Position numbers and translations under genes: made by a program. A stretch of DNA of 64,000 nt from Catajapyx aquilonaris. Its lineage: Eukaryota. This document shows positions 19,352 to 64,000 of this stretch, piece after piece. Every line of letters starts with the position of its first letter. The first letter of the stretch is position 1. The stretch spans positions 1 through 64,000 of the forward strand of contig KZ538416.1 of the NCBI GenBank assembly GCA_000934665.2, given 5' to 3'. The notes under the pieces were generated by a model. That model did no database searches, was not told the origin of the DNA, and saw only the letters and a program-made list of their open reading frames with translations.

Positions 19352-19963
<612 letters not shown>

Positions 19964-22257: not shown

Positions 22258-22564
22258 GTGTACCATTTGAAAAATTGGGTATCATCTCGCAATATCACAA
22301 AAATTGTTCTTATTGTCAGTTTTCTGGAAAGTCAGGAGTGATGTTACCACCTAGAAATTTTATGCCCATGTCTGTGTAAATGAAATGGCATGTGCATGAT
22401 TGCTGCACATGTCAATTGAGTGTTAGGGTAGGGCAAAGTAGACCTTTGAATCTGGGTGAATGGAACTATCACAGCAAGCTAGGAAAATATTCATGTGTAA
22501 GAATTCTCCCTCAGTGTGCATGATGCAAGACCCGTATTGTCTAATTACATAACTTCAATTTCAG

Positions 22565-22964
22565 GGGGAAAAAACCACAGCGACTGACCTCTTACAAGAT
22601 GTAGTAGTCAAGATATTTGCGTATCTCTCCAAGAGGGATCTCAAGAACGTAGCCCTTGTTTGCAAGGCATGGAGTGAGTGTGCCTTGGACTCACGACTGT
22701 GGAAGTCAATATCACTTGATGGCAGAAGGCTACCCAGCGTGACAGTTGCTGTTGCGCTGCTACAGGGAATGCCCCAGTTGAAGAAGCTGGAGTTGTTGCA
22801 ATGGAGTGGAAATGATACTAAGAAAATTATCTGCACTGTTTGGAGAACTGCTCCCAACCTGGAATGCCTATATCTGCAAGATATCTACTGCTTGGAAGAT
22901 GTACTTATACGCCTGCCCCAAAAATTCATGAAGCTTAAGGAGATCTCCCTTGTCCACATGAAGG
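22565..22964 (+). CDS. F-box/LRR-repeat protein, exon 2 (F-box domain and first LRRs)
   Basis: Acceptor TTTCAG; translates TDLLQDVVVKIFAYLSKRDLKNVALVCKAWSECALDSRLWKSISL (F-box consensus), then LRR-like PQLKKLEL and PNLECLYL; donor G|GTAAG. Confidence 0.85.
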
Positions 22965-23780
22965 GTAAGACAACATATCTGAACCTTAATTTCATTCCTA
23001 GCCTCATGAAGACAAATACACCATATGCTATCACATTCAAACAGCTTACACACCAATTAATACACTAATACCTCGATATAACACTCCCGCATATAATGCT
23101 GCCCCGCTTTTAAAACCCATTTTTTCTGGTCCCTTGATCATCCCCTTAACCTTTTGACGCTTGAATTTTTGTGGCTGTTTTAGCCTCTCTTTGACAAAAT
23201 TTTGTAGTAGGAGTAGCCTAATATTGATGAAAATCAATATGCTCCAATATTGATCATTTCAACTCGTGGTGGTCCTTTTGAATGTAAATTGCCGAAAATA
23301 TTCATCTACAGGGTGTTCCAGAAATTTTAAAAAAGTGCAATTAACTTTATGTAATTACATTTATTTAGCTTTTTAAAGTCACTATAAAATTGTTACTATG
23401 ATTGCAAAATAATACTAAAACACTGTACTATGAGAAATTCCTAAGAGTCCAGACTTACGGTACACCCTGTTCTGATGCTGCAGGAAGGGGTATGTTTAGC
23501 TCACGGTGGGAGGCGGAAAAACTGATTGGCATATGCACTGGTAGTTGAGCCCAGTTGGCAGTATGGGAGCATTGAGCAAGTGCAACAACTAATGAATAAC
23601 ACGGCATTTTTTTTTCTATCCACTTTAGATGTATGAGGGTCCATGTGGGATGGTGTAACGAGGTGGGCATTGTCACCAAGTGTTAAACATGATGTGTACG
23701 TTGCGGAGAGGCAGCTTATGTGAACTATGCCCCTGGTTAATCACTATGGTTTTGGGTACCAGTACTTCAGGGGATATTTT

Positions 23781-30155: not shown

Positions 30156-30551
30156 CAATTGTCCCTCGTCGGAGCCTTCTCCGTCAATGTGAAACAGCAC
30201 TCACCTTTTCCTCACTTGCAATGAGACTTACTGGCCTAAGTTTATACCTCATATTTTCCCTTCTCGTGCAACCATATTTGATGATAATGCAGATGCTCCA
30301 CAAGCTTCTGCAAGCTTTCTACAGTGTCTTGCTGTAGGCCCTCTGGCATTTAAAAAAATAAGTTTTCAAATTTTAAAACTGTGAATAGACTATAACTAGT
30401 CGCAAAGACTACCAATCTTCTGTTTACTTCTCATGCACATGTTGGCTTGTGGTGTGACCTTCATGGTAAACTCTTGCTCCTCGTTACATTTGTTGCAGAT
30501 ATTGTACCCAAAGGAAGGTGTCAATAAGCTATACTCATTGCATTATTCCAG

Positions 30552-31261
30552 AGGATGGCCAACACTTTTTGGACCGTCTGGTGCCACTCGCTGACCTGCA
30601 ACGGATGATCCTGGGCCAGTCATATACCTTCCATGGATGCACAGGTCAAGCAACATACTTTCCACCCCTTCTACCAGACGCATCTATGGAATGGAAGTGG
30701 CGCAGTCTGGAGGAGGTGTGCATTTTCCGAAAGCCTTCTGATGTTGAATTTCGGTTAGTAATTTGCAACATTTCAAGCCAGCTTCGAAAATTGGCAGTTG
30801 GATTACTGGAACAGACTGGATCATTTGCACTTCTGTCACACTGCACATCCCTGAATGAGCTGCATCTCGTGAATGCTAAGAAGATGGATGACCAAGGACT
30901 TCTGAGTGGTGTTGGCTCCTTGCTTGAACTGAAGCACCTTACTATGCGGTGTCTAACCTCCACAACAATATTTGGTCTGAATCAATTCTGGAGTCGTCGC
31001 CAAGTAGTTGGAAATCTTGAAAGCTTGGACATGTCCTACAGTCATTGCGTGACAGACAATGTTCTGTCGCTGGTAGTCAGGAGTTGTCCCAGATTGAAAC
31101 ATGTATCCCTTGGAGGATGTCACAAGATCAGTGGCGCAGGCCTAAAGTGCCTTGTAGCAGGCTGCCCGGAACTTTTGCGTGTTGATCTCTACAAGTGTCA
31201 ACTAGATGATCCCTACTTGCTTACTGAACTGAGGCCAGACCTTCAGGTGAACTTAATATAA
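30552..31261 (+). CDS. F-box/LRR-repeat protein, exon 3 (AMN1/cysteine-containing LRRs) to stop
   Basis: Phase-1 acceptor TTATTCCAG|AG fits exon 2; LRRs NLESLDMSYSHCVTDNVL, CPRLKHVSLGGCHKISGAGL and CPELLRVDLYKC; TAA at 31259-31261. Confidence 0.85.
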
Positions 31262-35453: not shown

Positions 35454-37018
35454 GAAGAACTGCAACATGGTCCCGTAGAATGGGGGGACTTCAGACAATG
35501 GCGTGAAATCAAAGGCTTACACTTTTCTTTGCTTGGGTCAGTGTGGATACTTATTAGGAGACCAAAAAAGCTGTTTTTCAAGGGTGTTGGATGGAGTGGG
35601 TTCGAGAGCTGCAGAATAGAACATGAGCAAGCCAGATGCACAGTGAGAGTACTGTACTTCTTGCACACACTCATTCCCCAACTCAAAAAGAGTTACTCAG
35701 AGGCCTCCTGGGAGGGTCGGGAGTGAACCCGGCTATAGTTTCTATATTTGTGACTCGCAGGAGATAATGTGAACCTTTTGATTTCCATTATGAACAGGTA
35801 TTTTCTTTGAAGGGAGACAAAAATCCCTTCCGTTTCCGCATTGGACAGGTTCCGTTATACTCGTCAAAAAATGCATTGCATGCCCTATGCATATGCCTGT
35901 TCCAGGAAAATATTCTGCCATGGATAGGTTTCCGCTATACCCAGGGTCCGCAATTGGCAGATTTCATTGTACTTTGCTGCACAGACTGTTATTCCAGTGC
36001 AGTTACTTTTGGAACACCTGTATAGGTCTGCCACAATAATATTTTTTGCTGCTGTCTCAGCATGTACTACTCATAATTATGTATTTTTTAAATTATTACA
36101 ACTGCATGAGTTTCCATTTCGTAAACAAACATATGCGAGGCTAATTTTTCACAACATATTTTCATTTTTTCCCATTTATTATTACAAATGCATGAATTTT
36201 ACATATTTTTCATAAACAAACTTAAGCTAAGGTGATTTGTCCAACCTTTTTTTCATTCTTCTCCTTTTTTTCTGTATATTACAACAAGCTCGCAAGTTTT
36301 CATTTCATACATAAACCAACTTAAGATGATTATTGTCCAACCACTTTCAATTTTTCCTCCTCTTTTCCATACATTACTACAAGAGCACAGGTTTTTCAAT
36401 TTCATATAAACAAACTTAAGCTAAGCTGAGTTTTGTGCAACTTTTTTTCCAATTTTTTCTCCTTTTTTCTGTATATTACTACAAGAGCACAGGTTTTTCA
36501 ATTTCATATGAACAAACTTAAGCTAAGCTGATTTTTGTCCAACTTTTTTCTTTCACTCTTCTCCTCTTTTCCATACATTACTACAAGAGCACAGGTTTTT
36601 CAATTTCATATAAACAAACTTAAGCTAAGCTGAGTGTTGTGCAACTTTTTTTTCCAATTTTTTCTCCTTTTTTCTGTATATTACTACAAGAGCACAGATT
36701 TTTCAATTTCATATGAACAAACTTAAGCTAAGCTGATTTTTGTCCAACTTTTTTCTTTCATTCTTCTCCTTTTTTCTGTATATTACTACAAGCTCGTAAG
36801 TTTTCATTTCATACCTAAACCAACTTAAGATGATTATTGTCCAACCACTTTCAATTTTTCCTCCTCTTTTCCATACATTACTACAAGAGCACAGGTTTTT
36901 CAATTTCATATAAACAAACTTAAGCTAAGCTCAGTGTTGTGCAACTTTTTTCTCCAATTTTTTCTCCTTTTTTCTGTATATTATATTACTACAAGAGCAC
37001 AGGCTTTTCAATTTCATA

Positions 37019-37465
37019 TGTGACCGGAACGAGTACACATACAAACTGGGCTCCATTGTAAAGTTGGTTTATTCAGAAAAACGTGTCGTACAATTGCGTC
37101 AGGGAGACAGGAATGGTTAAACAGTTAAGAGAGTGATTTGGTAGGGAGCAAATGACCAGCCCTCGGGATATTCTCCCGAGGGACTGATCTGGAGCATCAC
37201 TGGCCTGTTGGTTAAATAGTTGGTTATGACATAGTGCATGATGGGTATAATCCTGGGTATAAGGATGAGACGTCATAAACACGCTATACGATGGATAGAT
37301 AACATGCATATAGGGGTACATACAAGTGATAACAAGACAGGAGAAATGCTACACTTCAATGGGTCTCTTCAGGTGGTATAATGGGGGAGGTATCAATATA
37401 GGAAATTGGACCTGGACAGTGAAAGGAAAGGTCATTAAACCTTTCTTGAAAATGATAAGGTCACA
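37019..37465 (-). repeat. 3' LTR (447 bp)
   Basis: TG...CA ends with 7-bp terminal inverted repeats; minus-strand TATTTAA (~37212-37218) and AATAAA (37068-37073). Confidence 0.9.
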
Positions 37466-37630
37466 CACCTCCGACCGAAGATGCTTCCCACCCGGCAATG
37501 GTTTGAAGACAGGTTCTAGTAGATTTATACACTCACAACTGGTATCCACAAAATAAATAAATAGGACTGTCTGATGGGGCAATGGTTCCCCGTCCAAAAG
37601 AACAAAATAGAGATGGGTTGGTTATGAACG

Positions 37631-38185
37631 TTACACATCGTGCCCCTCGATTTCGGGTGTAACCCCCACCGATGGTTGTGGAGGGTCAAAAGTATTGCTC
37701 GCTACAGACGCTTCGACTACTGGTTCGAATGTGGGGTTGTTAAACATTTCAACGTGCATAGAGAATGCGACAGGGTCCCCCGCGCCGTCGGATGGGATGG
37801 CCCCCACCAATAATTGTCGGCTGATATCGATAGAACATTCCCAATACCTCAAGAAATCAAGTCCAAGAATCACCGGACTTGCTGATGATGATATGATGTA
37901 CAGCCTCTTCAGGTACACGTGTTGGTCCAAACATAAGGGTAGGGTCATCTCTCCAAGCGGCACAATAACATGGCCGTCCGGGGTTGCGAGTCGTACTTGA
38001 TCACACAGTCGAATAGCGGGTCGCAAGTCGTCTGGAATACGATGTATCACGTTGGTTGACACGAGGGATGCTGCGGCTCCAGTACATAAAGCTGCCCTCC
38101 AGGTACGTCCATAGATGGATACTTGTATCGAGGCAGCGGCACGCCAGGCATCGATTGAACCGGTTAAGTTCAAAAAGAGTGACAT
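37631..38185 (-). CDS. Retropepsin-like (Gypsy aspartyl protease fold) protein, 184 aa, catalytic Asp replaced by Cys
   Basis: Intact ATG-to-TAA ORF; IQVSIYGRTWRAALCTGAAASLVS fits the (A)LxDTGAxxSLIS motif, and PVILGLDFL fits the ILGxDFL motif. Confidence 0.8.
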   Translation of the reverse strand: MSLFLNLTGSIDAWRAAASIQVSIYGRTWRAALCTGAAASLVSTNVIHRIPDDLRPAIRLCDQVRLATPDGHVIVPLGEMTLPLCLDQHVYLKRLYIISSSASPVILGLDFLRYWECSIDISRQLLVGAIPSDGAGDPVAFSMHVEMFNNPTFEPVVEASVASNTFDPPQPSVGVTPEIEGHDV

Positions 38186-38257
38186 CCTTCGGTGGCTGTG
38201 AATGCAAGAGTCTCGAGCACGCCAGGCACAATCAGTTCATGAATCCAGCGCCTCTTC

Positions 38258-38265
38258 TTTTTATA
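38258..38265 (-). promoter_or_regulatory. Candidate internal TATA box for the protease-like ORF
   Basis: Minus strand CGTATAAAAAGAAG, ~75 nt upstream of the ATG at 38185. Confidence 0.4.
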
Positions 38266-38820
38266 CGGCACACATCCACACACACTAACACAAATTTTCG
38301 TCATCCTTCCCAAAATTGTCTCCAATGGGACAAATTAAATGCGGGGCCAGTTGGTGGCTGTTTTACCGTCAACTACAATACCTCATAGATAGAATGTAAG
38401 TCCAATGTTCGGCATCCAAGATCCGGAACTGCATCACCCCAATTTCAAATAGGGGTAACAAGGGGGGAAAGAATGGTACATACTATTCACGTCATCTCAA
38501 ACGTGTAAAGGGTCAAACCCATAGTAAAAAGGGGTCCAAGGTCCCCACCACTCAGTTACATTCAAATCAGGTTACCGCCGGAAGGGCGTTGTGGGTCTAG
38601 CTATCCACGCTATCGCAAACGTGAAAAATGGGTGAATCCCATAGCTAAAAAGAAAAGGGCCAATGTGGGGCCCACCCCACATCGCAAGACAAAAGGGATC
38701 GTCTCAGTTGTTGATAGAGACGATCACTCCTACAACATGGTTAAATCACTCCAACTAAATGTCACATGTAACAAACACATGGGGTTCGGCTTTAAAGAAG
38801 GAAAAGGTATATGCTCATAG

Positions 38821-39051
38821 CGTAGGACAGGGAAATGTCTCAGCAGATTTGCCTACAGCGGTGAGGAGGGGTAAAAGGAAATTGTCACGTTGCGTAGGAC
38901 AGGGAAATGACTCAGCAGATTTGCCTACAGCGGTGAGGAGGGGTAAAAGGAAATTGTCACGTTGCGTAGGACAGGGAAATGACTCAGCAGATTTGCCTAC
39001 AGTGGTGAGGAGGGGTAAAAGGAAATTTGTCACGACAGAGCAGGGAAATGT
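38821..39051. repeat. 72-bp tandem repeat (3 copies plus a partial) in the element leader
   Basis: CGTAGGACAGGGAAATG...TTGTCACG units start at 38821, 38893 and 38965. Confidence 0.9.
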
Positions 39052-39217
39052 CAAGCATATGTGCTCATGGAAAATAGTACTTCAAAGTACGTCATATGTA
39101 GACTGGGCCAGCCGTACGGCACCATGTCATTCATAAGTGTCATTTTAAAGACACTCCATTCCCGATATGGAAATGGCACACGTTATGTTGTTGAGACAAC
39201 AGTTTACAATGCATCGG

Positions 39218-39235
39218 ATCCCACTTCTGACACCA
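39218..39235 (-). promoter_or_regulatory. Primer-binding site complementary to the tRNA-Leu 3' end
   Basis: Minus strand TGGTGTCAGAAGTGGGAT, 8 nt inside the 5' LTR; complementary to ...ATCCCACTTCTGACACCA of eukaryotic tRNA-Leu(CAA). Confidence 0.85.
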
Positions 39236-39243
39236 TTTTTATA

Positions 39244-39689
39244 TGTGACCGGAACGAGTACACATACAAACTGGGCTCCATTGTAAAGTTGGTTTATTCA
39301 GAAAAACGTGTCGTACAATTGCGTCAGGGAGACAGGAATGGTTAAACAGTTAGAGAGTGATTTGGTAGGGAGCAAATGACCAGCCCTCGGGATATTCTCC
39401 CGAGGGACTGATCTGGAGCATCACTGGCCTGTTGGTTAAATAGTTGGTTATGACATAGTGCATGATGGGTATAATCCTGGGTATAAGGATGAGACGTCAT
39501 AAACACGCTATACGATGGATAGATAACATGCATATAGGGGTACATACAAGTGATAACAAGACAGGAGAAATGCTACACTTCAATGGGTCTCTTCAGGTGG
39601 TATAATGGGGGAGGTATCAATATAGGAAATTGGACCTGGACAGTGAAAGGAAAGGTCATTAAACCTTTCTTGAAAATGATAAGGTCACA
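39244..39689 (-). repeat. 5' LTR (446 bp)
   Basis: Near-identical to 37019-37465; adjacent to the PBS. Confidence 0.9.
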
Positions 39690-40611
39690 CATATAAACAA
39701 ACTTAAGCTAAGCTGAGTGTTGTGCAACTTTTTTCTCCTTTTTTCCGTATATTTCTACAAGAGCACAGATTTTTCAATTTCATATGAACAAACTTAAGCT
39801 AAGCTGATTTTTGTCCCAACTTTTTTCTTTCACTCTTCTCCTCTTTTCCATACATTACTACAAGAGCACAGGTTTTTCAATTTCATATAAACAAACTTAA
39901 GCTAAGCTGAGTGTTGTGCAACTTTTTTTTCCAATTTTTTCTCCTTTTTTCTGTATATTACTACAAGAGCACAGATTTTTCAATTTCATATGAACAAACT
40001 TAAGCTAAGCTGATTTTTGTCCAACTTTTTTCTTTCATTCTTCTCCTTTTTTCTGTATATTACTACAAGCTCGCAAGTTTTCATTTCATACCTAAACCAA
40101 CTTAAGATGATTATTGTCCAACCACTTTCAATTTTTCCTCCTCTTTTCCATACATTACTACAAGAGCACAGGTTTTTCAATTTCATATAAACAAACTTAA
40201 GCTAAGCTGATTTATGTCCAACTTTTTTTTCCAATTTTTTCTCCTTTTTTCTGTATATTACTACAAGAGCACAGGTTTTTCAATTCCATATAAACAAACT
40301 TAAGCTAAGCGGATTTGTGTCCAACATTATTTTCAATTTTTTCTCTTTTTTTCTGTACATTACTACAAGTGCAGAAGTTTCAATGTCATAAACAAACTTA
40401 AACTAAGATGACTGTTGTCAATTTTTTTTGCAACTTTTTTTTTCTCCCGATAACATTGATGACCATACTTATGTACTTATATATACAGAGTACACACTGA
40501 ACCTTCATCATCTAGTAAGGCTGACATACCCCCCATTATACTAACTTAAAAATAACAACCTTAAGCTTAGTTGTTGATAGAATTACATGCCAATCTTAGA
40601 AAAGTGAAACT

Positions 40612-41097
40612 TCATGCCATCATTTGCTTGTCCATTTGGTCTGCAATCATAACAGCAATGGCCAAAGAGGAAGTTGCACCTGGTGAAGGTGCATTCCTAC
40701 AGTGTAATAATCTCTTCCCAAGATCTCCCTTCCCAGAGTCAAATACAAAATCATCCACCAGGTTGCCCTGAGAGTCCATAGCTTGTGCCCTGACGCCTGA
40801 AGGACCCCTCTTTACATCATGCCTTTCAATCTCTGGTATGTAGCGCCTCAAGGCAGTGACCTGCATTTGGTAAAATGCTGATCGCATCACCTCATTAACT
40901 CCAAACCATGCATACTGGAGGGCCAGGCGCTGGAATCCTGGGAAGCGAACCATGTCCCAGACGTCTTTGGGGTCCACCTGGCCCCAGCTGTAGCCCTCTC
41001 GCTTCAAAGCAGGGACAGCATTTGGTCCCAGCCACACACTGCCATCCATGCGTGGGGTGAAGTGGACACCCAGAAAGGGAAATCGTGCATCTGGAAC
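40612..41097 (-). CDS. L2HGDH: L-2-hydroxyglutarate dehydrogenase, last exon
   Basis: VPDARFPFLGVHFTPRMDGSVWLGPNAV...GPSGVRAQAMD...LHCRNAPSPGATSSLAIA; acceptor TCAAG|GTT; TGA stop. Confidence 0.95.
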   Translation of the reverse strand, partial: VPDARFPFLGVHFTPRMDGSVWLGPNAVPALKREGYSWGQVDPKDVWDMVRFPGFQRLALQYAWFGVNEVMRSAFYQMQVTALRRYIPEIERHDVKRGPSGVRAQAMDSQGNLVDDFVFDSGKGDLGKRLLHCRNAPSPGATSSLAIAVMIADQMDKQMMA

Positions 41098-41374
41098 CTT
41101 GAGTTAGAAGGAGTGGAAAGAAAAAAGAAATATTAACATCTCTTGCTAAAGCTTCACTATTATAATCCAATTCACATGGCTCATGCAATTGTCAATTTAA
41201 CTTCTCTAACATAAAACAGGTGTCAAATATTTGATTTGAAATAAAAGTGCTTGTGGGTGTGTGGGTGTATGTGAGTGGGAGACGTGTGTGAAGCTTTAAA
41301 ATCACCCTGTGCAGTAAAAGTATATAAACTGCTTTGTAAAAAAGAAAAAAGAAACATAGCCAATTGTTTCTAAC

Positions 41375-50034: not shown

Positions 50035-50481
50035 CGTAATTGGGTCATTCCATGTCAAGACAGACAACTTGGTGGCTCGACCATCTCATAATTTGATATA
50101 AAAATCATTGAAGTGTTGCCAAAAATAAAGTTAAGAGCCTCCCAGGTGAAAATCCCACGGAGATATGGCAACGTCTTTCAGCAACTGTGGAGCCGGATTC
50201 GAAGGTCCATTTATTTCAGGTGAAATTATTGTTGTACCCTCATGTTCATATTATATCAAATGAACTGTTGTGAGATGAGGAACATTTTGTGGCAACATGT
50301 TTAACCTAGATTGTAAAATAAAAATGCTAAAAAAATCGCATTATTGTGCAAAACGGACATATTTCACATGGTCGAATGTCATTGTTAAATACATGCTAAG
50401 CGTGTGGAATTAATATGGTAGGTACATTGCCATCTGATCATCAGTAGTCATTACTACTGCAGGACAACATCAAGGTCAAGC

Positions 50482-52837
50482 CATCTGACCAAGCCAGAGA
50501 AAAATATGTGGCAGAAAGGAGACTCTATAAAAAACTATTAGCTGCAAAAAAGAAAAAATACTTCTCAGAAACCCTGAGGCAACAATTATTAAGTACGGTA
50601 GAACCAAAGAGTTTCTGGAAAATAATAAAACAAGCAAAGAGGTATGCACCTAAAATAGACTTGGACAAGGAAAAATGGTGGGAGTACAACAAAAAATTAC
50701 AAGAGAGAAACGCCTCAAATCTAATCCCCCAAATCGTCAATTTTGGTACGTTTGAAGATCCGATGCTAGACCACATTTTAACGTTTGAGGAATACGAAAT
50801 AGCAATTAAGAAATTAAGGCCTAAATCCTCTCCAGGGCCAGACATGGTGCCAAATACTTTATTACTTGTGAAAGCAGAATGCCTTCATGATAATCTATTC
50901 ACTAAATTGAAAAATTACTTAGAAAGCAGGCAAATACCGGATGGATGGATACAAGCCAAAATATGCCCGATTTATAAAACAGGAGACAAAGAGGACCCAG
51001 CAAACTACAGACCAATAACTCTTTTTAACAATACTCTTAAAATTTTCACTTCCATTATAAACAACAGGATCAGGATATGGGCAGAAACAAGCGGAATTTT
51101 TCCTGAATGGCAAGCAGCATTTCGCAAAGGCAGAGGATGTGCAGACCACTTATTCACCCTGCATGTACTGACCCAAAAATATCTAAATAAACCTAAGGGC
51201 AAACTCTTCGCTGCATTCATAGATCTATCAAAAGCTTTCGACTCGATTGGACATAATATGTTATTACAAAAATTAAACTCTATAGGCTTTAGCTTCAAAA
51301 CCTTAGAATTAATTAGACAAATTTACCTTAAAATGGAAATTGTGGAAGACTTTGAAACAAAAAACCCAATCAGAATAACAAGAGGAGTTCCGCAAGGAGA
51401 ATCACTTAGCCCTACCTTATTTAATCTGTATATGGCAGACCTAGATACCTTTCTACAGCAAAGAAATTGCAAAGGAGTTAATTTTGGAAGCGGATTAAGA
51501 GAAATCAGAATACTAGCGTATGCAGATGACCTCATTCTTTTAGGAGATAACCCCCTCTATCTGCAGGAAAATATAAATGCATTACGAGAGTATTTTGAAG
51601 CGCAAGAACTCCAAATAAATCTTAAAAAAACAAAGATTATTTGCTTCAGAAAAGGAGGTAGACCACCAAATAAAGCTTTTTATTGGCACTCCGAAAAAAT
51701 AGAAATGGTATCGTCATATACATATTTGGGCATAACACTCAAGAGCTCCGGAAAATTTATTTTAGCTGCTGAACAACTGAAAAAGAAAGCACTCTCTGCG
51801 ATAAACGGACTCTGGCCTATATTGATAAATTTAAAATTACGAGACATACATATTGCTATGAAACTTTTCCATACCCATATCACACCGATAATAATGTATA
51901 ATGCACATATTTGGGGTCCAAACCACTTAGACACGATAAACCAGGTACAAATTTTCTTTATAAAAAAATTCCTAGGACTCCCACGAAATGCAGCGAATTA
52001 TTTTGTCTACTTGGAAACAGGGATTTTGCCATTAACTGCTGTATTAATAAAATCAATAATCAGAAACATGGAAAAGATAATAAACCTGGACGATCAGAGG
52101 CTAGTGAAAGAAGCCTATAATTATTCTTTGAAAACTAATTCAGATAAGCCATTATTAAGAGAAAATTGGATATACACTTGTAAAAACCTAATTCAAAAAA
52201 ACGGAGTGAACTGGTCAGATATCTTTTCGGACATGGCCATTATTGCTGAAAAGATAAACGCGACCCAAAAGACAAATATTATGAACATACTTCAACAAAC
52301 TAGTAGATATAAATATTACAAAGAAATTAAAAATAGTTTTGAACAGGAAGGATACCTAGCTTACGGTTTGCCAATGATACAGATCAGAATGATAAGTAAT
52401 TTAAGAAATAAGTCAAAATATATACGCTTAAAGAAAGACTCCATAAAGCTGTATGATGAGGTTTTCTGTGAATGGTGTAATATGCAAGAACCGTTAACAG
52501 CACATCACATAATATACGAATGCAGATATTTCGATACGCCGAGAAAAATTAATCTGTACAACCTCCCCTCTTACCCACCGACACTTTTTCATTTTCTTTT
52601 GGAAGGATTAACAAAAAACCAAATTTTCTGTTTATATGCTTTTTTTCACAATGTAAATAAAAGAATCAACTTTTCAATGTAATCCGGGAACCTCGAAACA
52701 TCAGATAATTTGTCAAAAATTGTAATTACAAAAGTAAACTGTAAAAAAAAAAAAAATGGGTGTGTATGTGTCCCCCAATACAGGCATACGCCTGAGCACG
52801 GGGTATGAAAATAAAAATAAATAAATAAATAAAAAAT
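50482..52837 (+). mobile_element. 5'-truncated non-LTR retrotransposon (RTE-X-like), antisense in an L2HGDH intron
   Basis: 16-bp TSD AACATCAAGGTCAAGC (50466-50481 and 52838-52853); (TAAA)n tail; RT ORF. Confidence 0.9.
50508..52682 (+). CDS. LINE ORF2 reverse transcriptase (endonuclease lost by 5' truncation) with C-terminal CCHC-like motif
   Basis: KSSPGPD, NYRPITL, QAAFRKGR, FIDLSKAFD, GVPQGESLSPTLFNLY, YADD, YLG motifs; CEWC...H....C; no stops over 724 codons; no true ATG start. Confidence 0.9.
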   Translation: MAERRLYKKLLAAKKKKYFSETLRQQLLSTVEPKSFWKIIKQAKRYAPKIDLDKEKWWEYNKKLQERNASNLIPQIVNFGTFEDPMLDHILTFEEYEIAIKKLRPKSSPGPDMVPNTLLLVKAECLHDNLFTKLKNYLESRQIPDGWIQAKICPIYKTGDKEDPANYRPITLFNNTLKIFTSIINNRIRIWAETSGIFPEWQAAFRKGRGCADHLFTLHVLTQKYLNKPKGKLFAAFIDLSKAFDSIGHNMLLQKLNSIGFSFKTLELIRQIYLKMEIVEDFETKNPIRITRGVPQGESLSPTLFNLYMADLDTFLQQRNCKGVNFGSGLREIRILAYADDLILLGDNPLYLQENINALREYFEAQELQINLKKTKIICFRKGGRPPNKAFYWHSEKIEMVSSYTYLGITLKSSGKFILAAEQLKKKALSAINGLWPILINLKLRDIHIAMKLFHTHITPIIMYNAHIWGPNHLDTINQVQIFFIKKFLGLPRNAANYFVYLETGILPLTAVLIKSIIRNMEKIINLDDQRLVKEAYNYSLKTNSDKPLLRENWIYTCKNLIQKNGVNWSDIFSDMAIIAEKINATQKTNIMNILQQTSRYKYYKEIKNSFEQEGYLAYGLPMIQIRMISNLRNKSKYIRLKKDSIKLYDEVFCEWCNMQEPLTAHHIIYECRYFDTPRKINLYNLPSYPPTLFHFLLEGLTKNQIFCLYAFFHNVNKRINFSM

Positions 52838-59394: not shown

Positions 59395-59443
59395 GTTTAA
59401 TATGACGTGATTACTATTATTATTTGATGTTTTCATTTTTCAG

Positions 59444-59896
59444 TCACGGCGAAGATCCGAAATCTGAATGACTTTCATCTCCGACTCCTTCACAACATTG
59501 TACCACTTCCCTCAGGCCAGGACATAGCCAACACCTTGAAGCATTTTTCCCAGACTCTTCTGGGTGTCTTGAAGGATGTTCCCAATTTTCCACTGGAGAT
59601 GCTTAAGTGCCGCTCGCAAGACACGGTGCGAATGTCCCTATTCCCAAGCCTCGATTACAAGGCCCTGTTTGGAGCCATAGTCCAGCTTCTGGAAATGGCT
59701 CCCGTTATCCAGCAAGGAGTGGAAACATTTGGACTTGGGATTTTCCATTCTCTCTCCTGCTTGCTGCCCTTCTTGGAGCATGAGTTGATTGACACCCTGC
59801 CTTATGTAGTAGCAAATTCTATGGCCTGCCTGCCACCTTGCCTTCACCAGGAGATCATGAATATGCTATGTTACAGGCTTCTTCCAGTCACTCTAT
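59444..59896 (+). CDS. unc-79: unc-79 coding exon 2
   Basis: TAKIRNLNDFHLRLLHNIVPLPSGQDIANTLKHFSQTLL...LLPFLEHELIDTLPYVVA; TTTTCAG acceptor, GTATGT donor. Confidence 0.93.
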
Positions 59897-59962
59897 GTAT
59901 GTTTCAATGCAAGTCATGAGTTTTGTGTTGGGATACCCAGGTATTTGTATTCAAACCTACAG

Positions 59963-60055
59963 GCATGGAAGAAGGGGAGACTGAGGCAGACAATTATGCA
60001 AGCCAATCTACTTCTGCTGTGCTCATGATGGTGCTTCAGTACTCGGACAAGACAG
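59963..60055 (+). CDS. unc-79: unc-79 coding exon 3
   Basis: After a 66-bp intron: MEEGETEADNYASQSTSAVLMMVLQYSDKT; phase-consistent AG/GT. Confidence 0.85.
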
Positions 60056-61032
60056 GTCAGTAGTTGAAGGGATATTGCGTCAGTAATTTTTATTCCTTGG
60101 AAAAACAGACCAACAAAGTTTCTTTCCTGTTTCATTATCAGGGATGTAAAAGGCAGGCAATAATGTTAATATACTGACATGGCATGGAATTTTTTTAAAA
60201 TATTGGCAAAACTCGTGTGTTTCCCTATGAAGTAATGCTGTCTCTGTATGCCATTCACTTTTCTACCATTAGAGGAAAATAATTATTTGGCAACAAATAA
60301 TAATTGGAATCCTTCGTGTGACAAATTTTGCTTATCAACATTGCTTGCCTCTTATGACAAAAAAGCTCACCTTGGTATATTGATTTTGGTATTTAGGGCT
60401 TACCCCCAAACTTGCCAAATGTCCACCAAAAAATTCTCCCCATGGGACTATTTTTAGCGGTTTTTATGTTGAAGTACATTATTAAATTTATTTTTATTCT
60501 TATTTTTTAATTGTACCCCATGATAGAGCCTGTGGCTCTCTTAGGGGGGTGGGACACCACCATATTTTCTTAGTTATTTTTCATCTTTCTTTCGACTCCG
60601 GTGCAGGGAAATCAAGGACATTGGGTAAGGATAGGGATTTTTGGGGATAATACTGATAAATGGGTCATGTGGTGTTCCCCAAGAGGTTAGGCCAGACACC
60701 TCCAAGGCATGGGACAGAGACCCTCCTGACGCAGGTAAAAGGGAACTCCCAGGCGGGGATCGAACCTGGGACCTTTCATTCAGCAAGCCAAGACGTTACC
60801 GTCTCAGCCACCGCACCTCCCCGAAGTACATTATTTAATTACTGTTAACTGTGTGGATGGGGGGGAGGGATGAAAATTTATCATGTACAGAGAGAAAATG
60901 CTGAAAAAGAGCATGCTCCTAAGCATCTGGTGGAGTGAGGAGTGTCTAGAAACTCAAACCAGTACAGAGAGAGTTCTTTGTGCACTGGTATGTGACCAAA
61001 ACTGCCATATCTTGACAGATATGTCCAGTATA

Positions 61033-61409
61033 CAGGGTGTTTGTTACTAGTCCAGCATGCCGCCATCAGTGTATTCCTCGGGCCAAAAGAAGTCGAAAAT
61101 GTAGGGGGGAGAAATGTCGAGGGAGCAACCTTTAATATGACCTTGACCAGAAACATTGGTCGATGGTTGCCGAAGGAGCAGGATATCAACGTGAAAAACG
61201 TGACTGTTAGGATTTGCAAGGTCACCTCTTTCGCAGAAGTGATTACCACCGCTCACATCCTGCAACTTCGGCAACCACCGCCTACTGTTTCTGGTTGTCT
61301 ACCTGGTTAACGGTTGGTCCCTCGACATTTCTCCCCCCTACATTTTCGACTTGTTTTGGCCCAAGGAATACGCTGACGGCAGCATGCTGGACTAGTAAGA
61401 AACACCCTG
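61033..61409. mobile_element. Tc1/mariner-type MITE (TA TSD)
   Basis: TA|CAGGGTGTTTGTTACTAGTCCAGCATGC...GCATGCTGGACTAGTAAGAAACACCCTG|TA, ~90-bp arms. Confidence 0.85.
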
Positions 61410-61706
61410 TATGGACTTAAAATACACTTGATTCACTTCCATGTCGATAACACTTTGGCAATTTTTGCTGGGCTCTCCCAAAAGTAGTACAAAAAGTTCA
61501 AAATTATGTTTAATTAGGGTTAACAAAAACTCAGGACACGTAAAATATTGTGGGCATGTTAAATTTTTATGCACTGTGACGACAGTTTGCATCATACACG
61601 GTGATCAAACTTTTTTGTCAATAACTAAAACGACAAAAATGTTTGATCACCCTGTATATCACATCTAAATGACAGCACTATAGTTAGCTTGCTGTTTTGA
61701 TTCCAG

Positions 61707-62208
61707 AGTTCCACTGCCAACTGACAGAGTGCCTGATGAGCCTGAAAGCTGATGTGGTGAAAGATGTGTATTGCGTGATTTCATATGGTACTCCAGTTGC
61801 CCAAGCTGCTGCAGCCACACTTCTGGTCTACTACTGGCCTCATCTTGATCAGCACTTGTATGATCGGCGTGGGATCCAGTTCCCCTTTACTGGATGGAGG
61901 CCCATCAACTGTCAGTGGGACCAGTGCTCCAATGGGAATAATATAGAGGCTGTTAAGGTCTGCCTAGATCACACACTGGCAGTCACTTGTGCCAATGACC
62001 CTCCACCACCATTGTATGCTTGCCAAGAATGTGCTACCAAGATTGTGCATGGCTACAACATGTCTCGCCACATATACGACATATTGCAACCCATGCCGCT
62101 GGTGTCCATGGCATGTGAGAATAAAAACTGCCGCTCTGATGAAAGATCAGCAACCACTGTGTGCTTTGCAATGGACTGTGCATCCTTCCATGCCAATCGT
62201 CCAATCAG
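61707..62208 (+). CDS. unc-79: unc-79 coding exon 4
   Basis: FHCQLTECLMSLKADV..D..CVISYGT...LLVYYWP...CENKNCRS...CASFHANRPIR; TTCCAG acceptor, GTGGGT donor. Confidence 0.93.
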
Positions 62209-62556
62209 GTGGGTGGTGTTTGCATGTAAAGTAGGATTTACACTGAGCAACCTTGTCGGATAAGTTTGTGAAAATTACGTTGTCAAATTACAGTCACAAA
62301 TGTGGTTCTGCGACTTGCCTTATGACTTCAAATTCTTCCTCTCTCTGTCATTGTGATTAATTATGTCTACTTGTCCTATAACTAGGTTGCTCAATATGAA
62401 CCCTACCTTGGTTGGCCTATGTTGTTAAACGTGAATTGACTAATCAAGGACAGATTAGTATTCCTTGGAAGATGAATTGTTGATAGTGGTATTATGCTAA
62501 TTGCTGATGTGATAATGACCCAATGAAAAATACTTAATTCTTGAACTTGGCCACAG

Positions 62557-62966
62557 ATACTGCTCCCAATGCCATGCTTTGCGTCACAACAATCGGCGAG
62601 GTGGTGATCACATGGTGCATTCTTACCTGAAGCCTCCATGGGATGCTGATGCCGAGACCCAGATCTACATGGTGGAAGCTGTGGTCAGCTTGTTGAAGGC
62701 AACAGAGATAACCCGAGGGCCTAAGGGAACTGCATTTGGGGCAGGTTTTGGATTGGGGACCACCACTGGGATGGAAGCAGGAGCCGCCATGGCAGAAGAT
62801 GCCGGGCAAAGCATTTCAGCAGAAGACAGACGATTACTGGGGAGATATGGCATATGGCTTTTGGTTGGTCTCTGCACTCCAACTGAGAAGACACCTACCG
62901 AGACTCTTGGGAGGCTACTCTCGATGCTGTTTCAGTGGTTTAATGCCACTGCATATCAAGCTAATG
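62557..62966 (+). CDS. unc-79: unc-79 coding exon 5 (gene continues beyond the window)
   Basis: YCSQCHALRHNNRRGGDH...YMVEAVVSLLK...RRLLGRYGIWLLVGLCTP...LGRLLSMLFQWFNATAY. Confidence 0.92.
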
Positions 62967-64000
62967 GTAGGTACATGTGGAGTTGGTGTTGATAAAGAGC
63001 CAATAGTGATAGCTATTGTTTTTGCATAAGACAAATGAGGCGCTCAGAGGAAAAACGGCATATCCCAACAGACCTCAGATTTTGAGATTGTAGTGCTTTT
63101 GTACACTCCTGCCATCTACCTTTCATGTGCTGAAGTCCCAAATGAATTGGGATATGCCAAAGCTCACATATTACACTTGTAAAATTGGTCCGCAATGGAA
63201 AATCCTATTATCTTGTAACACAAAAAGCCTTTTATCTCAAAATAAACTCTGGTTGGGATATCCCGTTTTTTCTCTGAGCGCCTCAAATATGTTGCCAACT
63301 CAGGATGTAATAATGTGGTTTCATAGGCTGTGAATAATGTCTTGCCAAGACAATTTTGCAGCAGATGTCACCAAATGATAAAGGTTGCTGGGGGTGTATG
63401 CTTGAGCATTATGAACAGTACTCAGACTCTGTGTTAATGTTTACCAACATTAGGTTTGGATCTGGATCCTAAGGCTGCACAATCTTCTCGCACATCACTT
63501 AACGTTCTTCTCTTTTGAAATGAAAATAATATTTTTTGCAGTTAATTATTCTGACTCCTTTATTTCATTTATAATAATTGCTTACCTTCTGATAGGCCTG
63601 TGATTTCTTAGGGGATCTTTTTGAGACATAAAATATGGCTCTGAAGTTACATGACATATCAATGATACTCAGTGGCGTATTATTGTTTTGCTGCAACAAA
63701 GATGGGTGATGTGGTGGGAAGAGCAACAGTATGATGTTATAGCCAGCGGTTCTCCAAGAATGCACGTCTGGCACCTCCCACTTTTCAAATTTCTATGAAC
63801 GACTCCTGGTTGCCAGATGGAATAAGTGATGTTTTTGAAAGACTGTTGTTACTTTATAAAACAATTGTATACAAAAATTTATCATATCTTAATATCAATT
63901 TACATATGAAAAGCACAAGCACATGAATAATATTTTCTTTGCCAGTGTAATGTTTTTAATGAGATAATGTTCGCTTCACTGGGGAGGCGGAGTGGTGCTG

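What the first reader, a model, noticed from the sequence alone, without database searches (positions are those of the whole stretch)
37019..39689. Young protease-only mini LTR retroelement (no gag, RT, RNase H or integrase)
Seen: two 446/447-bp LTRs (TGTGACC...GGTCACA) differing by a single visible 1-nt indel, a 4-bp CATA TSD, an 18-nt tRNA-Leu PBS and a weak purine tract (GGAGGTG) before the 3' LTR. The 1.78-kb interior holds ~1 kb of non-coding leader and one intact 184-codon ORF with its own ATG and stop. Established: in Gypsy elements the protease is normally part of a Gag-Pol polyprotein, and non-autonomous LTR elements (TRIM/LARD) are typically non-coding or gag-only. Inference: near-identical LTRs plus a clean TSD mean this structure transposed recently in trans. 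It may be a distinct class of non-autonomous element that keeps a stand-alone protease-fold gene, i.e. a parasite or modulator of a helper Gypsy family.
Basis: partly seen in the sequence, partly recalled or inferred. Interest (0 to 1): 0.85.

Follow-up and report, generated by a model that had tools for sequence, protein, structure and literature searches.

The report
Mini retrotransposons carrying a pseudo-protease gene
This is a freshly inserted miniature jumping gene that cannot copy itself, and it belongs to an old, diverse family in this animal genome whose only gene is a protease look-alike that selection preserves even though it has usually lost its cutting residue, probably to act on the full-length elements it depends on.

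Summary
Observation confirmed: a 2,671-bp minus-strand element with identical LTRs (one indel), CATA duplication, tRNA-Leu(CAG) primer site and one 184-codon retropepsin-fold ORF. It is no deletion stub: of 56 protease-like loci examined in this genome, 38 lack adjacent gag/pol, and 12 elements (window included) are complete 2.4-3.7 kb LTR-ORF-LTR insertions with their own 4-bp duplications and 0-2.3% LTR divergence. Their ORFs form one side of a branch apart from pol proteases, show purifying selection (dN/dS 0.15 for the window ORF; 0.16-0.34 in pol proteases), and 18 of 31 lack the Asp. A TATA box precedes the ATG in 18 of 30, suggesting a separate internal promoter. Full-length Gypsy-type elements share only LTR ends, primer site and purine tract. 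Best mechanism (inferred, about 0.45): a non-catalytic partner of the helper's protease; rival: a nuclear SUMO-binding anti-silencing factor. No expression data. The scan noted this layout before on other DNA of this genome (few copies) and a look-alike in a sea urchin. I found no published description.

The parts
37015..37018 (.). Target-site duplication CATA (left copy)
   Evidence: empty satellite units carry it once
37019..37465 (-). 3' LTR, 447 bp; AATAAA signal starts at 37073 on the minus strand
37466..37472 (-). Short purine tract GGAGGTG; near-identical tracts precede the 3' LTR in other minis and in full-length elements
37631..38185 (-). Stand-alone 184-codon ORF: retropepsin fold (about residues 11-150) plus a low-confidence tail
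   Evidence: dN/dS 0.15 against the C4113 relative
38084..38086 (-). Codon 34 (Cys) at the position of the catalytic Asp of the D-[ST]-G motif
   Evidence: same Cys in the C4113 relative
38259..38265 (-). TATA box 80 nt before the ORF's ATG: candidate internal Pol II promoter (inferred)
   Evidence: present at a like distance in 18 of 30 related ORFs
38820..39034 (.). Three 72-bp tandem repeats in the leader; role unknown
   Evidence: a similar stretch lies in the C10955 relative
39218..39235 (-). 18-nt primer-binding site for tRNA-Leu(CAG)
39244..39689 (-). 5' LTR, 446 bp
39384..39442 (-). LTR promoter-like layout: TATTTAA (39442), Inr-like TCAGTC 31 nt later (39411), then a 23-nt hairpin (39406-39384); inferred start of the genomic RNA
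39690..39693 (.). Target-site duplication CATA (right copy)
36212..40429 (.). Host ~102-bp satellite array interrupted by the element (context, not part of it)

Best explanation
SHOWN: the element is a recent insertion belonging to an old, diversified clade of 2.4-3.7 kb non-autonomous Ty3/Gypsy-type LTR elements whose only recognisable gene is a stand-alone retropepsin-fold ORF under purifying selection, in most lineages without the catalytic Asp (my confidence in this part about 0.9). INFERRED: the LTR promoter makes a genomic RNA that borrows Gag, RT and integrase from full-length elements using the same tRNA-Leu primer, purine tract and LTR ends; a second, internal TATA promoter makes a short mRNA for the ORF, bypassing a 1-kb leader with 26 ATGs. 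MOST LIKELY FUNCTION (inferred, about even odds given the above): the protein is a pseudo-protease that works by binding, pairing with the helper's protease domain in Gag-Pol or sitting on its cleavage sites, and so damps or delays helper maturation in a way that favours packaging and integration of the mini RNA, as a satellite does to its helper.
For: Class: 38 of 56 fetched protease-like loci have no adjacent gag/pol, 18 have it; 12 of 39 such loci (window included) are complete with 4-bp duplications, LTR divergence 0-2.3%. One branch separates 31 mini from 16 pol proteases (99/99) and 26 mini from 27 pol-type core domains including 14 outside proteins (SH-aLRT 86). Selection: 15 of 17 mini pairs show a synonymous excess at p<0.01; dN/dS 0.09-0.29 in the 13 of them with estimable dS, including Asp-less pairs; 8 pol pairs give 0.16-0.34. 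Catalysis dispensable: 18 of 31 minis lack the Asp, 5 keep it in an altered motif, 8 keep D-S-G; 16 of 16 pol proteases keep it; at least 4 changes on the tree; that column is among the least conserved while fold residues are near-invariant. Own promoter: TATA 50-160 nt before the ATG in 18 of 30, against 9 of 176 upstream windows, 0 of 30 on the other strand, 0 of 18 before pol proteases. Helper link: minis match gag/pol loci at the LTR-end/primer junction (window vs L076/L077: 90% over 40 nt) and short LTR motifs only. Binding: a predicted complex of the window protein with a pol protease domain scored 0.62 against a best control of 0.00 (runs agree in at least 88% of contacts, partner pLDDT at least 77; the mark was reached by 51 of 78 solved and 2 of 108 mismatched pairs), with residues 34-35 against the partner's D-T; since retropepsin dimers are solved many times over, this shows retained likeness of the dimer surface, not that these two bind. 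Premature proteolysis abolishes particle formation in HIV-1 (PMC3675044, passage seen); inhibition by inactive protease subunits in HIV-1 is recalled, not found in the passages I read.
Against: No expression evidence of any kind. Predicted interface columns are no more conserved than other core columns (36 vs 95 columns, p 0.69). The mini proteins share only about 24% profile identity with pol proteases and diverge widely from each other, more than a partner of one conserved helper enzyme might be expected to. Eight of 31 keep D-S-G, so one mechanism may not cover the clade. 12 of 29 tails end in a SUMO-interaction-like motif and some carry basic runs, which points to the nucleus rather than the particle. 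The two closest mini pairs show no significant selection (0.77, 0.59). The dN/dS method ignores transition bias, which lowers the ratio, and pairs are not independent. A protein acting in trans helps rival minis too, so how selection reaches the encoding element is unexplained. No specific helper with a matching LTR body was found.
Confidence: 0.45

Rival explanations
1. Same class of element, but the protein acts in the nucleus as an anti-silencing or integration cofactor: the retropepsin fold serves as a dimer scaffold that presents two SUMO-interacting tails (or, in the D-S-G lineages, cuts SUMO- or ubiquitin-marked proteins as Ddi1-like enzymes do).
For: 12 of 29 tails match a hydrophobic-core-plus-Ser/acidic motif against a shuffle mean of 0.16 (maximum 3 in 2000), spread over four deep sub-branches; L068, L087 and L088 have basic runs; own promoter fits expression apart from the genomic RNA; closest solved folds are Ddi1 protease domains. 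The role of SUMO in piRNA-guided silencing is recalled.
Against: The motif pattern was chosen after viewing the tails, and related sequences are counted separately; the window protein has no such tail; 17 of 29 lack it; Ddi1 tops the fold list at only 13-20% identity, as any eukaryote-like retropepsin might. Two literature searches gave no transposon-encoded precedent in their listings (listing only).
Confidence: 0.25
2. The gene is an active or formerly active extra protease that supplies processing in trans; Asp-less members complete an active site with a helper subunit or use another residue.
For: 8 of 31 minis keep D-S-G and most of them sit nearest the pol proteases in the tree; selection strength equals that of pol proteases.
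Against: Retropepsins need one Asp from each subunit (established knowledge); the position holds at least seven different residues among minis (A, C, H, K, L, N, S, T), so no substitute catalyst is conserved; 7 of the 12 young complete insertions lack the Asp.
Confidence: 0.12
3. The ORF matters at the RNA level only (translation stabilises or exports the RNA, or the region is a packaging signal) and the protein is incidental.
For: No protein evidence; non-autonomous LTR elements are generally held to need only cis signals (PMC4350172, PMC10886601, passages seen).
Against: Synonymous sites change 4 to 8 times faster than non-synonymous ones and fold-critical residues are kept at about 25% overall identity, the signature of selection on a folded protein; no Rfam match.
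Confidence: 0.08
4. A one-off internal deletion product of a full-length Gypsy element whose protease fragment is simply young, or a host gene captured by chance.
For: The window element is single in the assembly; true deletion derivatives exist in this genome (L154, L160); the ORF clearly descends from a pol-type protease (probability 99.9).
Against: No interior alignment to any of 26 gag/pol-bearing loci; minis group together, not each with a parent; they have their own ATG, stop, tail and TATA box; selection acted between minis, after the Asp was lost.
Confidence: 0.04

Closest known systems
TR-GAG non-autonomous LTR elements of plants (PMC4350172; passages seen)
   Same: Under 4 kb, two LTRs, PBS and PPT, TSD, a single ORF, several families, no matching autonomous element found; TR-GAG1 also uses tRNA-Leu.
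   Different: Their ORF is Gag and elements with protease similarity were filtered out; here the only gene is a protease fold, with no Gag, often no catalytic Asp, and a candidate internal promoter.
TRIM / SMART / LARD (PMC10886601, PMC6696364, PMC4350172; passages seen)
   Same: Helper-dependent LTR elements that keep PBS and PPT and resemble their helpers mainly at the primer-site region.
   Different: Described as having lost internal coding regions; this clade keeps a selected protein gene.
Gag-protease-only ATHILA derivatives (bioRxiv 10.64898/2026.03.20.713144; passages seen)
   Same: Abundant, recently active non-autonomous Gypsy elements that keep a protease and lack RT, RNase H and integrase.
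   Different: About 8.8 kb, keep Gag, and arise by a repeated ~3-kb deletion from their own parent families; here Gag is absent, the protease is a separate gene and the minis form their own old lineage.
Ty3/Gypsy pol retropepsins of the same genome (L071-L099 set) and Ddi1-type retropepsin domains (PDB 4rgh, 3s8i, 4z2z)
   Same: Same fold; profile-profile match over 150 columns; predicted to form the usual dimer surface.
   Different: Pol proteases are polyprotein domains with an intact Asp motif followed by a spacer and RT; the mini proteins stand alone, have a distinct C-terminal extension and variable tails, and mostly lack the motif.
Non-autonomous Troyka elements of sea urchins (PMC12440569; abstract and passages seen)
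   Same: Short LTR elements without functional Gag-Pol; an unchecked note of this scan reports a pseudo-protease gene in one.
   Different: Troyka has CG...CG ends and 3-bp TSDs; this element has TG...CA ends and 4-bp TSDs. The passages I saw say nothing of pseudo-proteases.

Membership tests
LTR retrotransposon (structure) | Paired direct LTRs with TG...CA ends and a 4-6 bp TSD | tested here: met
LTR retrotransposon (structure) | tRNA primer site and purine tract at the inner LTR borders | tested here: met
Autonomous Ty3/Gypsy element | Gag plus pol with PR-RT-RH-IN | tested here: not met
   none in the interior; related full-length loci show that order (L078)
Non-autonomous Gypsy-dependent element | Shares cis signals with an autonomous Gypsy-type family in the same genome | tested here: met
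   same PBS, purine tract and LTR ends; 90% over 40 nt at the junction with L076/L077
Non-autonomous Gypsy-dependent element | Mobilised in trans by an identified helper | not testable with these tools
   no helper with a matching LTR body found; inferred from young LTRs and TSDs
TRIM / SMART | Short, no internal protein-coding gene | tested here: not met
   2.67 kb with a selected ORF
LARD | Over 4 kb, non-coding interior | tested here: not met
   2.4-3.7 kb and coding
TR-GAG | Single ORF is Gag | tested here: not met
   no hit with a Gag profile of this genome's elements in 12 mini interiors; ORF is a retropepsin fold
Gag-protease-only deletion derivative (ATHILA type) | Keeps Gag and is colinear with a parent across one deletion | tested here: not met
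Troyka | CG...CG termini and 3-bp TSD | tested here: not met
   TG...CA and 4 bp; definition from PMC12440569 abstract
Retropepsin (clan AA) fold | Retroviral-type protease fold | tested here: met
   model pLDDT 81.8; best Foldseek match Ddi1 domain E 3.5e-7; Pfam hits below cut-off
Active retropepsin | D-[ST]-G catalytic motif | tested here: not met
   C-T-G in the window protein
Active retropepsin | Dimer formation | tested here: inconclusive
   prediction passes (0.62 vs 0.00) but probably by likeness to solved dimers; homodimer not tested
Named Gypsy clade of the helper (Mdg3, Mag, CsRn1 and the like) | RT phylogeny against reference clades | not tested
   no reference set on hand

The most novel reading that the evidence does not exclude
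These minis are true satellite retroelements that turned their helper's protease into a dedicated, separately promoted pseudo-enzyme: a trans-acting factor that binds the helper's protease or Gag-Pol (and in some lineages SUMO) to redirect the helper's particles, diversifying into many families inside one genome, with the same invention possibly arising independently in sea-urchin Troyka satellites.
Probability: 0.35. Interest if true: 0.92.

Novelty: new variant of a known kind. Interest (0 to 1): 0.78.

Why it matters
Non-autonomous LTR elements are usually treated as passive: they keep cis signals, at most Gag. Here a whole clade keeps one protein gene under selection as strong as that on the real enzyme, while discarding its catalytic residue several times and apparently giving it its own promoter. 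That implies an unrecognised non-enzymatic role for the retroviral protease fold and an active helper-satellite conflict among animal retrotransposons, comparable to phage satellites. It supplies natural variants (Asp kept, altered, lost; tail present or absent) for testing how protease timing governs particle assembly, and it shows a type of element that annotation pipelines keyed on RT or Gag would miss or discard as debris.

Tried and rejected
Near-identical copies of the window element: none besides itself; best relative 78-80% identical, 5'-truncated and frameshifted near the ORF end; a draft assembly of 20,583 contigs may collapse young copies. Relatives outside this genome: two word-based searches of 5.8 billion proteins gave nothing; the profile search of 1.84 billion representatives gave 4,461 hits at E<=0.001, none at 1e-30, nearly all over the protease core only, and 146 of the best 150 keep a D-[STC]-G motif; the 12 I read by eye look pol-type. 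The ESM Atlas returned generic retropepsin clusters. These blanks do not show absence in related animals. A metagenome scan with the alignment could not run. Expression: no RNA holder listed. Run X1 (kind not on record) has one contig joining 37015 to 39241, as a solo-LTR allele would, but with only 26 letters on the short side, so it is not used. Spliced sub-genomic mRNA: acceptor-like sites near the ATG in 10 of 32 against 30 of 250 control windows, weaker and less positioned than the TATA signal. Ribozyme or known RNA family: no Rfam match at E<=1. Degenerate Gag in leaders: none; the 330-codon leader ORF of L053 has no Pfam hit. Interface conservation: no signal. Literature: nine searches; the six aimed at protease-only or pseudo-protease LTR elements listed no description; most subscription papers and Repbase entries are outside the library, and I saw no supplements (those of the Troyka and ATHILAfinder papers may bear on novelty).
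Full report
1. The observation. The element spans 37019-39689 on the minus strand. Its LTRs align with 446 identities, no mismatch and one 1-nt gap, end in TGTGAC...GTCACA, and are flanked by CATA on both sides. It interrupts a ~102-bp satellite (36212-40429) whose empty units hold CATA once at that position, so the duplication is real. The primer site matches the 3' end of host tRNA-Leu(CAG) genes. The only ORF with a plausible family match is 184 codons at 37631-38185 (a weak peptidase-S68 hit on a plus-strand frame comes from the 72-bp repeats and had no stretch passing on its own). An AlphaFold2 model (mean pLDDT 81.8) has the retropepsin fold, nearest to Ddi1 protease domains and then HIV-1 protease.

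2. One stub or a class? The host genome is an animal draft of 286 Mb. DNA searches found no second near-identical copy; the best relative (C4113) is 78-80% identical. The protein search, however, gave 78 matches. I fetched 56 of these places, from the upper part of the list and skipping several at contig ends, plus 4 LTR matches. They split cleanly: 18 have gag upstream and, where the contig allows, pol downstream; 38 have neither beside the protease. Of these 38 plus the window, 12 are complete LTR-ORF-LTR insertions of 2,383-3,703 bp, on 12 contigs, each with a 4-bp duplication (10 different 4-mers) and LTR divergence of 0-2.3%; three more (L063, L080, L094) have LTR pairs without a resolved duplication, and many of the rest keep a purine tract and LTR start after the ORF. 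These were found through the protein, so ORF intactness among them is biased. An unbiased entry by primer site gave 137 exact matches (control 0); 60 further places were fetched and yielded one frameshifted mini (L124), a few partial ones, several gag/pol loci and a second lineage sharing the primer.

3. Origin. The mini ORFs are very diverged: 27 of 28 aligned relatives are 21-43% identical to the window protein. They descend from a pol-type protease (profile match probability 99.9, 24% identity). In a tree of 47 proteins (10 partial rows left out) one branch divides all 31 minis from all 16 pol proteases (99/99). With the core only, 8 near-duplicates further removed and 14 outside pol-type proteins added, the 26 minis still form one side of a branch (SH-aLRT 86, quick search). 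Long branches are present, so a single origin is favoured, not proven. At DNA level the 12 complete minis match 26 gag/pol-bearing loci only at the LTR-end/primer junction and short LTR motifs. They are therefore not fresh deletions of present-day parents.

4. Selection without catalysis. Pairwise counts (Nei-Gojobori) give dN/dS 0.15 for the window ORF against C4113 (135 codons, p 1e-8). Of 17 mini pairs, 15 show a synonymous excess at p<0.01 (0.09-0.29 in 13, two saturated); the two closest pairs do not (0.77, 0.59), as expected if their few differences arose after insertion. Eight pol-protease pairs give 0.16-0.34. The method ignores transition bias and the pairs share ancestry, but minis and pol controls are treated alike. 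Yet 18 of 31 minis lack the Asp, 5 keep it in an altered motif and 8 keep D-S-G, whereas 16 of 16 pol proteases keep it; the tree needs at least 4 changes, and the Asp column is among the least conserved while S40, P104, D110-F111, C117, D120 and G128 are near-invariant. Seven of the 12 young complete insertions lack the Asp. Selection thus keeps the fold, not the chemistry.

5. How the gene could be expressed. The window leader holds 26 ATGs before the ORF, so scanning from the LTR start is unlikely. A TATA box lies 78-116 nt before the ATG in 17 and 160 nt before it in 1 of 30 minis, against 9 of 176 upstream windows, 0 of 30 on the opposite strand and 0 of 18 before pol proteases; 10 of the 18 have a TCA initiator-like word 30-36 nt after it. 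I noticed the motif before testing it, moved five starts to the aligned second Met by hand, and relatives are not independent, but the signal spans several deep sub-branches. The LTR has its own TATA-like/initiator layout and a polyadenylation signal. I infer two transcripts: a genomic RNA and a short mRNA ending in the 3' LTR. No RNA data were available.

6. Mechanism. Shown: young insertions, no replication enzymes, cis signals shared with full-length Gypsy-type elements (pol order PR-RT-RH-IN), a selected and mostly Asp-less retropepsin gene. Inferred: mobilisation by those helpers. For the protein I rank first a binding role towards the helper's protease or Gag-Pol (0.45): retropepsins work as dimers with one Asp per subunit (established knowledge), an Asp-less subunit would damp a partner (HIV-1 precedent recalled), and premature proteolysis blocks particle formation in HIV-1 (PMC3675044, passage seen). 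A predicted complex with a pol protease domain scored 0.62 against 0.00 for the best of three controls, with at least 88% contact agreement and partner pLDDT of at least 77 (mark reached by 51 of 78 solved and 2 of 108 mismatched pairs); solved retropepsin dimers make a pass by likeness probable, so it shows only that the dimer surface looks intact. Interface columns are not specially conserved. Second (0.25) is a nuclear role: 12 of 29 tails end in a SUMO-interaction-like motif (shuffle mean 0.16; pattern chosen after viewing; motif type recalled) and three carry basic runs, but the window protein has neither. Active protease (0.12), RNA-level role (0.08) and deletion relic (0.04) follow.

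7. Comparison with what is known. Reviews and papers read in passages list TRIM, LARD, TR-GAG and BARE-2 as the non-autonomous types (PMC6696364, PMC4350172, PMC10886601); gag-protease-only ATHILA are larger, keep Gag and arise by deletion; non-autonomous Troyka differ in termini and TSD. The element works like TR-GAG in outline but fails its defining test. Six searches aimed at this layout listed no description; the library lacks most subscription papers and Repbase, and no supplements were seen. No mini-type protein was recognised outside this genome. This scan had earlier noted two nested protease-only copies in the same genome (e1-7593706, resting on few copies) and a pseudo-protease gene in a sea-urchin Troyka derivative (e1-7908809, unchecked); neither is used as support. 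What is added here is the size and age of the clade, selection after loss of the Asp, the candidate internal promoter and the tails.

8. Verdict. A real and apparently undescribed structural type of non-autonomous LTR retrotransposon: new variant of a known kind, interest 0.78. The class is well supported; the function is not shown.

Noticed in passing
window 40612-41103 (-): Exon of an FAD-dependent oxidoreductase gene (Pfam DAO; looks like L-2-hydroxyglutarate dehydrogenase, recalled). The element lies about 920 bp past its stop on the same strand, so it may sit in or near the 3' UTR.
   Followed up: partly
window 37015-39241: One contig of run X1 joins these points, as a solo-LTR allele would; short side only 26 letters.
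   Followed up: partly
L130, L158, L159, L164 (and L152): A second lineage with TGTAG-type LTRs shares the tRNA-Leu primer site; 2.4-3.0 kb elements with young LTRs carry long ORFs that by eye resemble the first ORF of gag/pol-bearing L152: TR-GAG-like elements in an animal.
   Followed up: partly
L157, L163, L167, L148: LTR-bounded elements of 1.1-1.2 kb and one of 2.7 kb (LTR identity 94-100%) with no recognised gene: TRIM-like.
   Followed up: no
L149, L150, L154, L160: Other young partial elements: gag-like plus protease (3.0 kb), integrase tail only (1.4 kb), RNase H end plus integrase (3.5 kb), RT fragment (3.6 kb).
   Followed up: no
L051, L054, L056, L061, L092, L100 vs L079: Minis from different protein sub-branches share a 93-100% identical 32-55 nt LTR-end/primer junction with one gag/pol locus, while the window and L053 match another: hints at helper switching or recombination.
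   Followed up: no
L096, L098 integrase C-terminus: The integrase tail ends in a hydrophobic-Ser-acidic stretch like the mini tails; a possible source of, or parallel to, the SUMO-type motif.
   Followed up: no
L053:3553-4542 (+): A 330-codon ORF that starts inside the primer site of one mini; no Pfam hit.
   Followed up: partly
window 19353-19961: 609-nt pure poly-T run, probably an assembly artefact.
   Followed up: no
window 50448-52682 (-): 744-codon open frame that reads like a LINE-type reverse transcriptase (by eye).
   Followed up: no
window 22553-23068 and 30470-31261 (+): F-box frame (Pfam) and a leucine-rich-repeat-like frame (by eye).
   Followed up: no
window 59428-62992 (+): Exons of an UNC-79 gene (Pfam UNC-79 for 61688-62260).
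   Followed up: no
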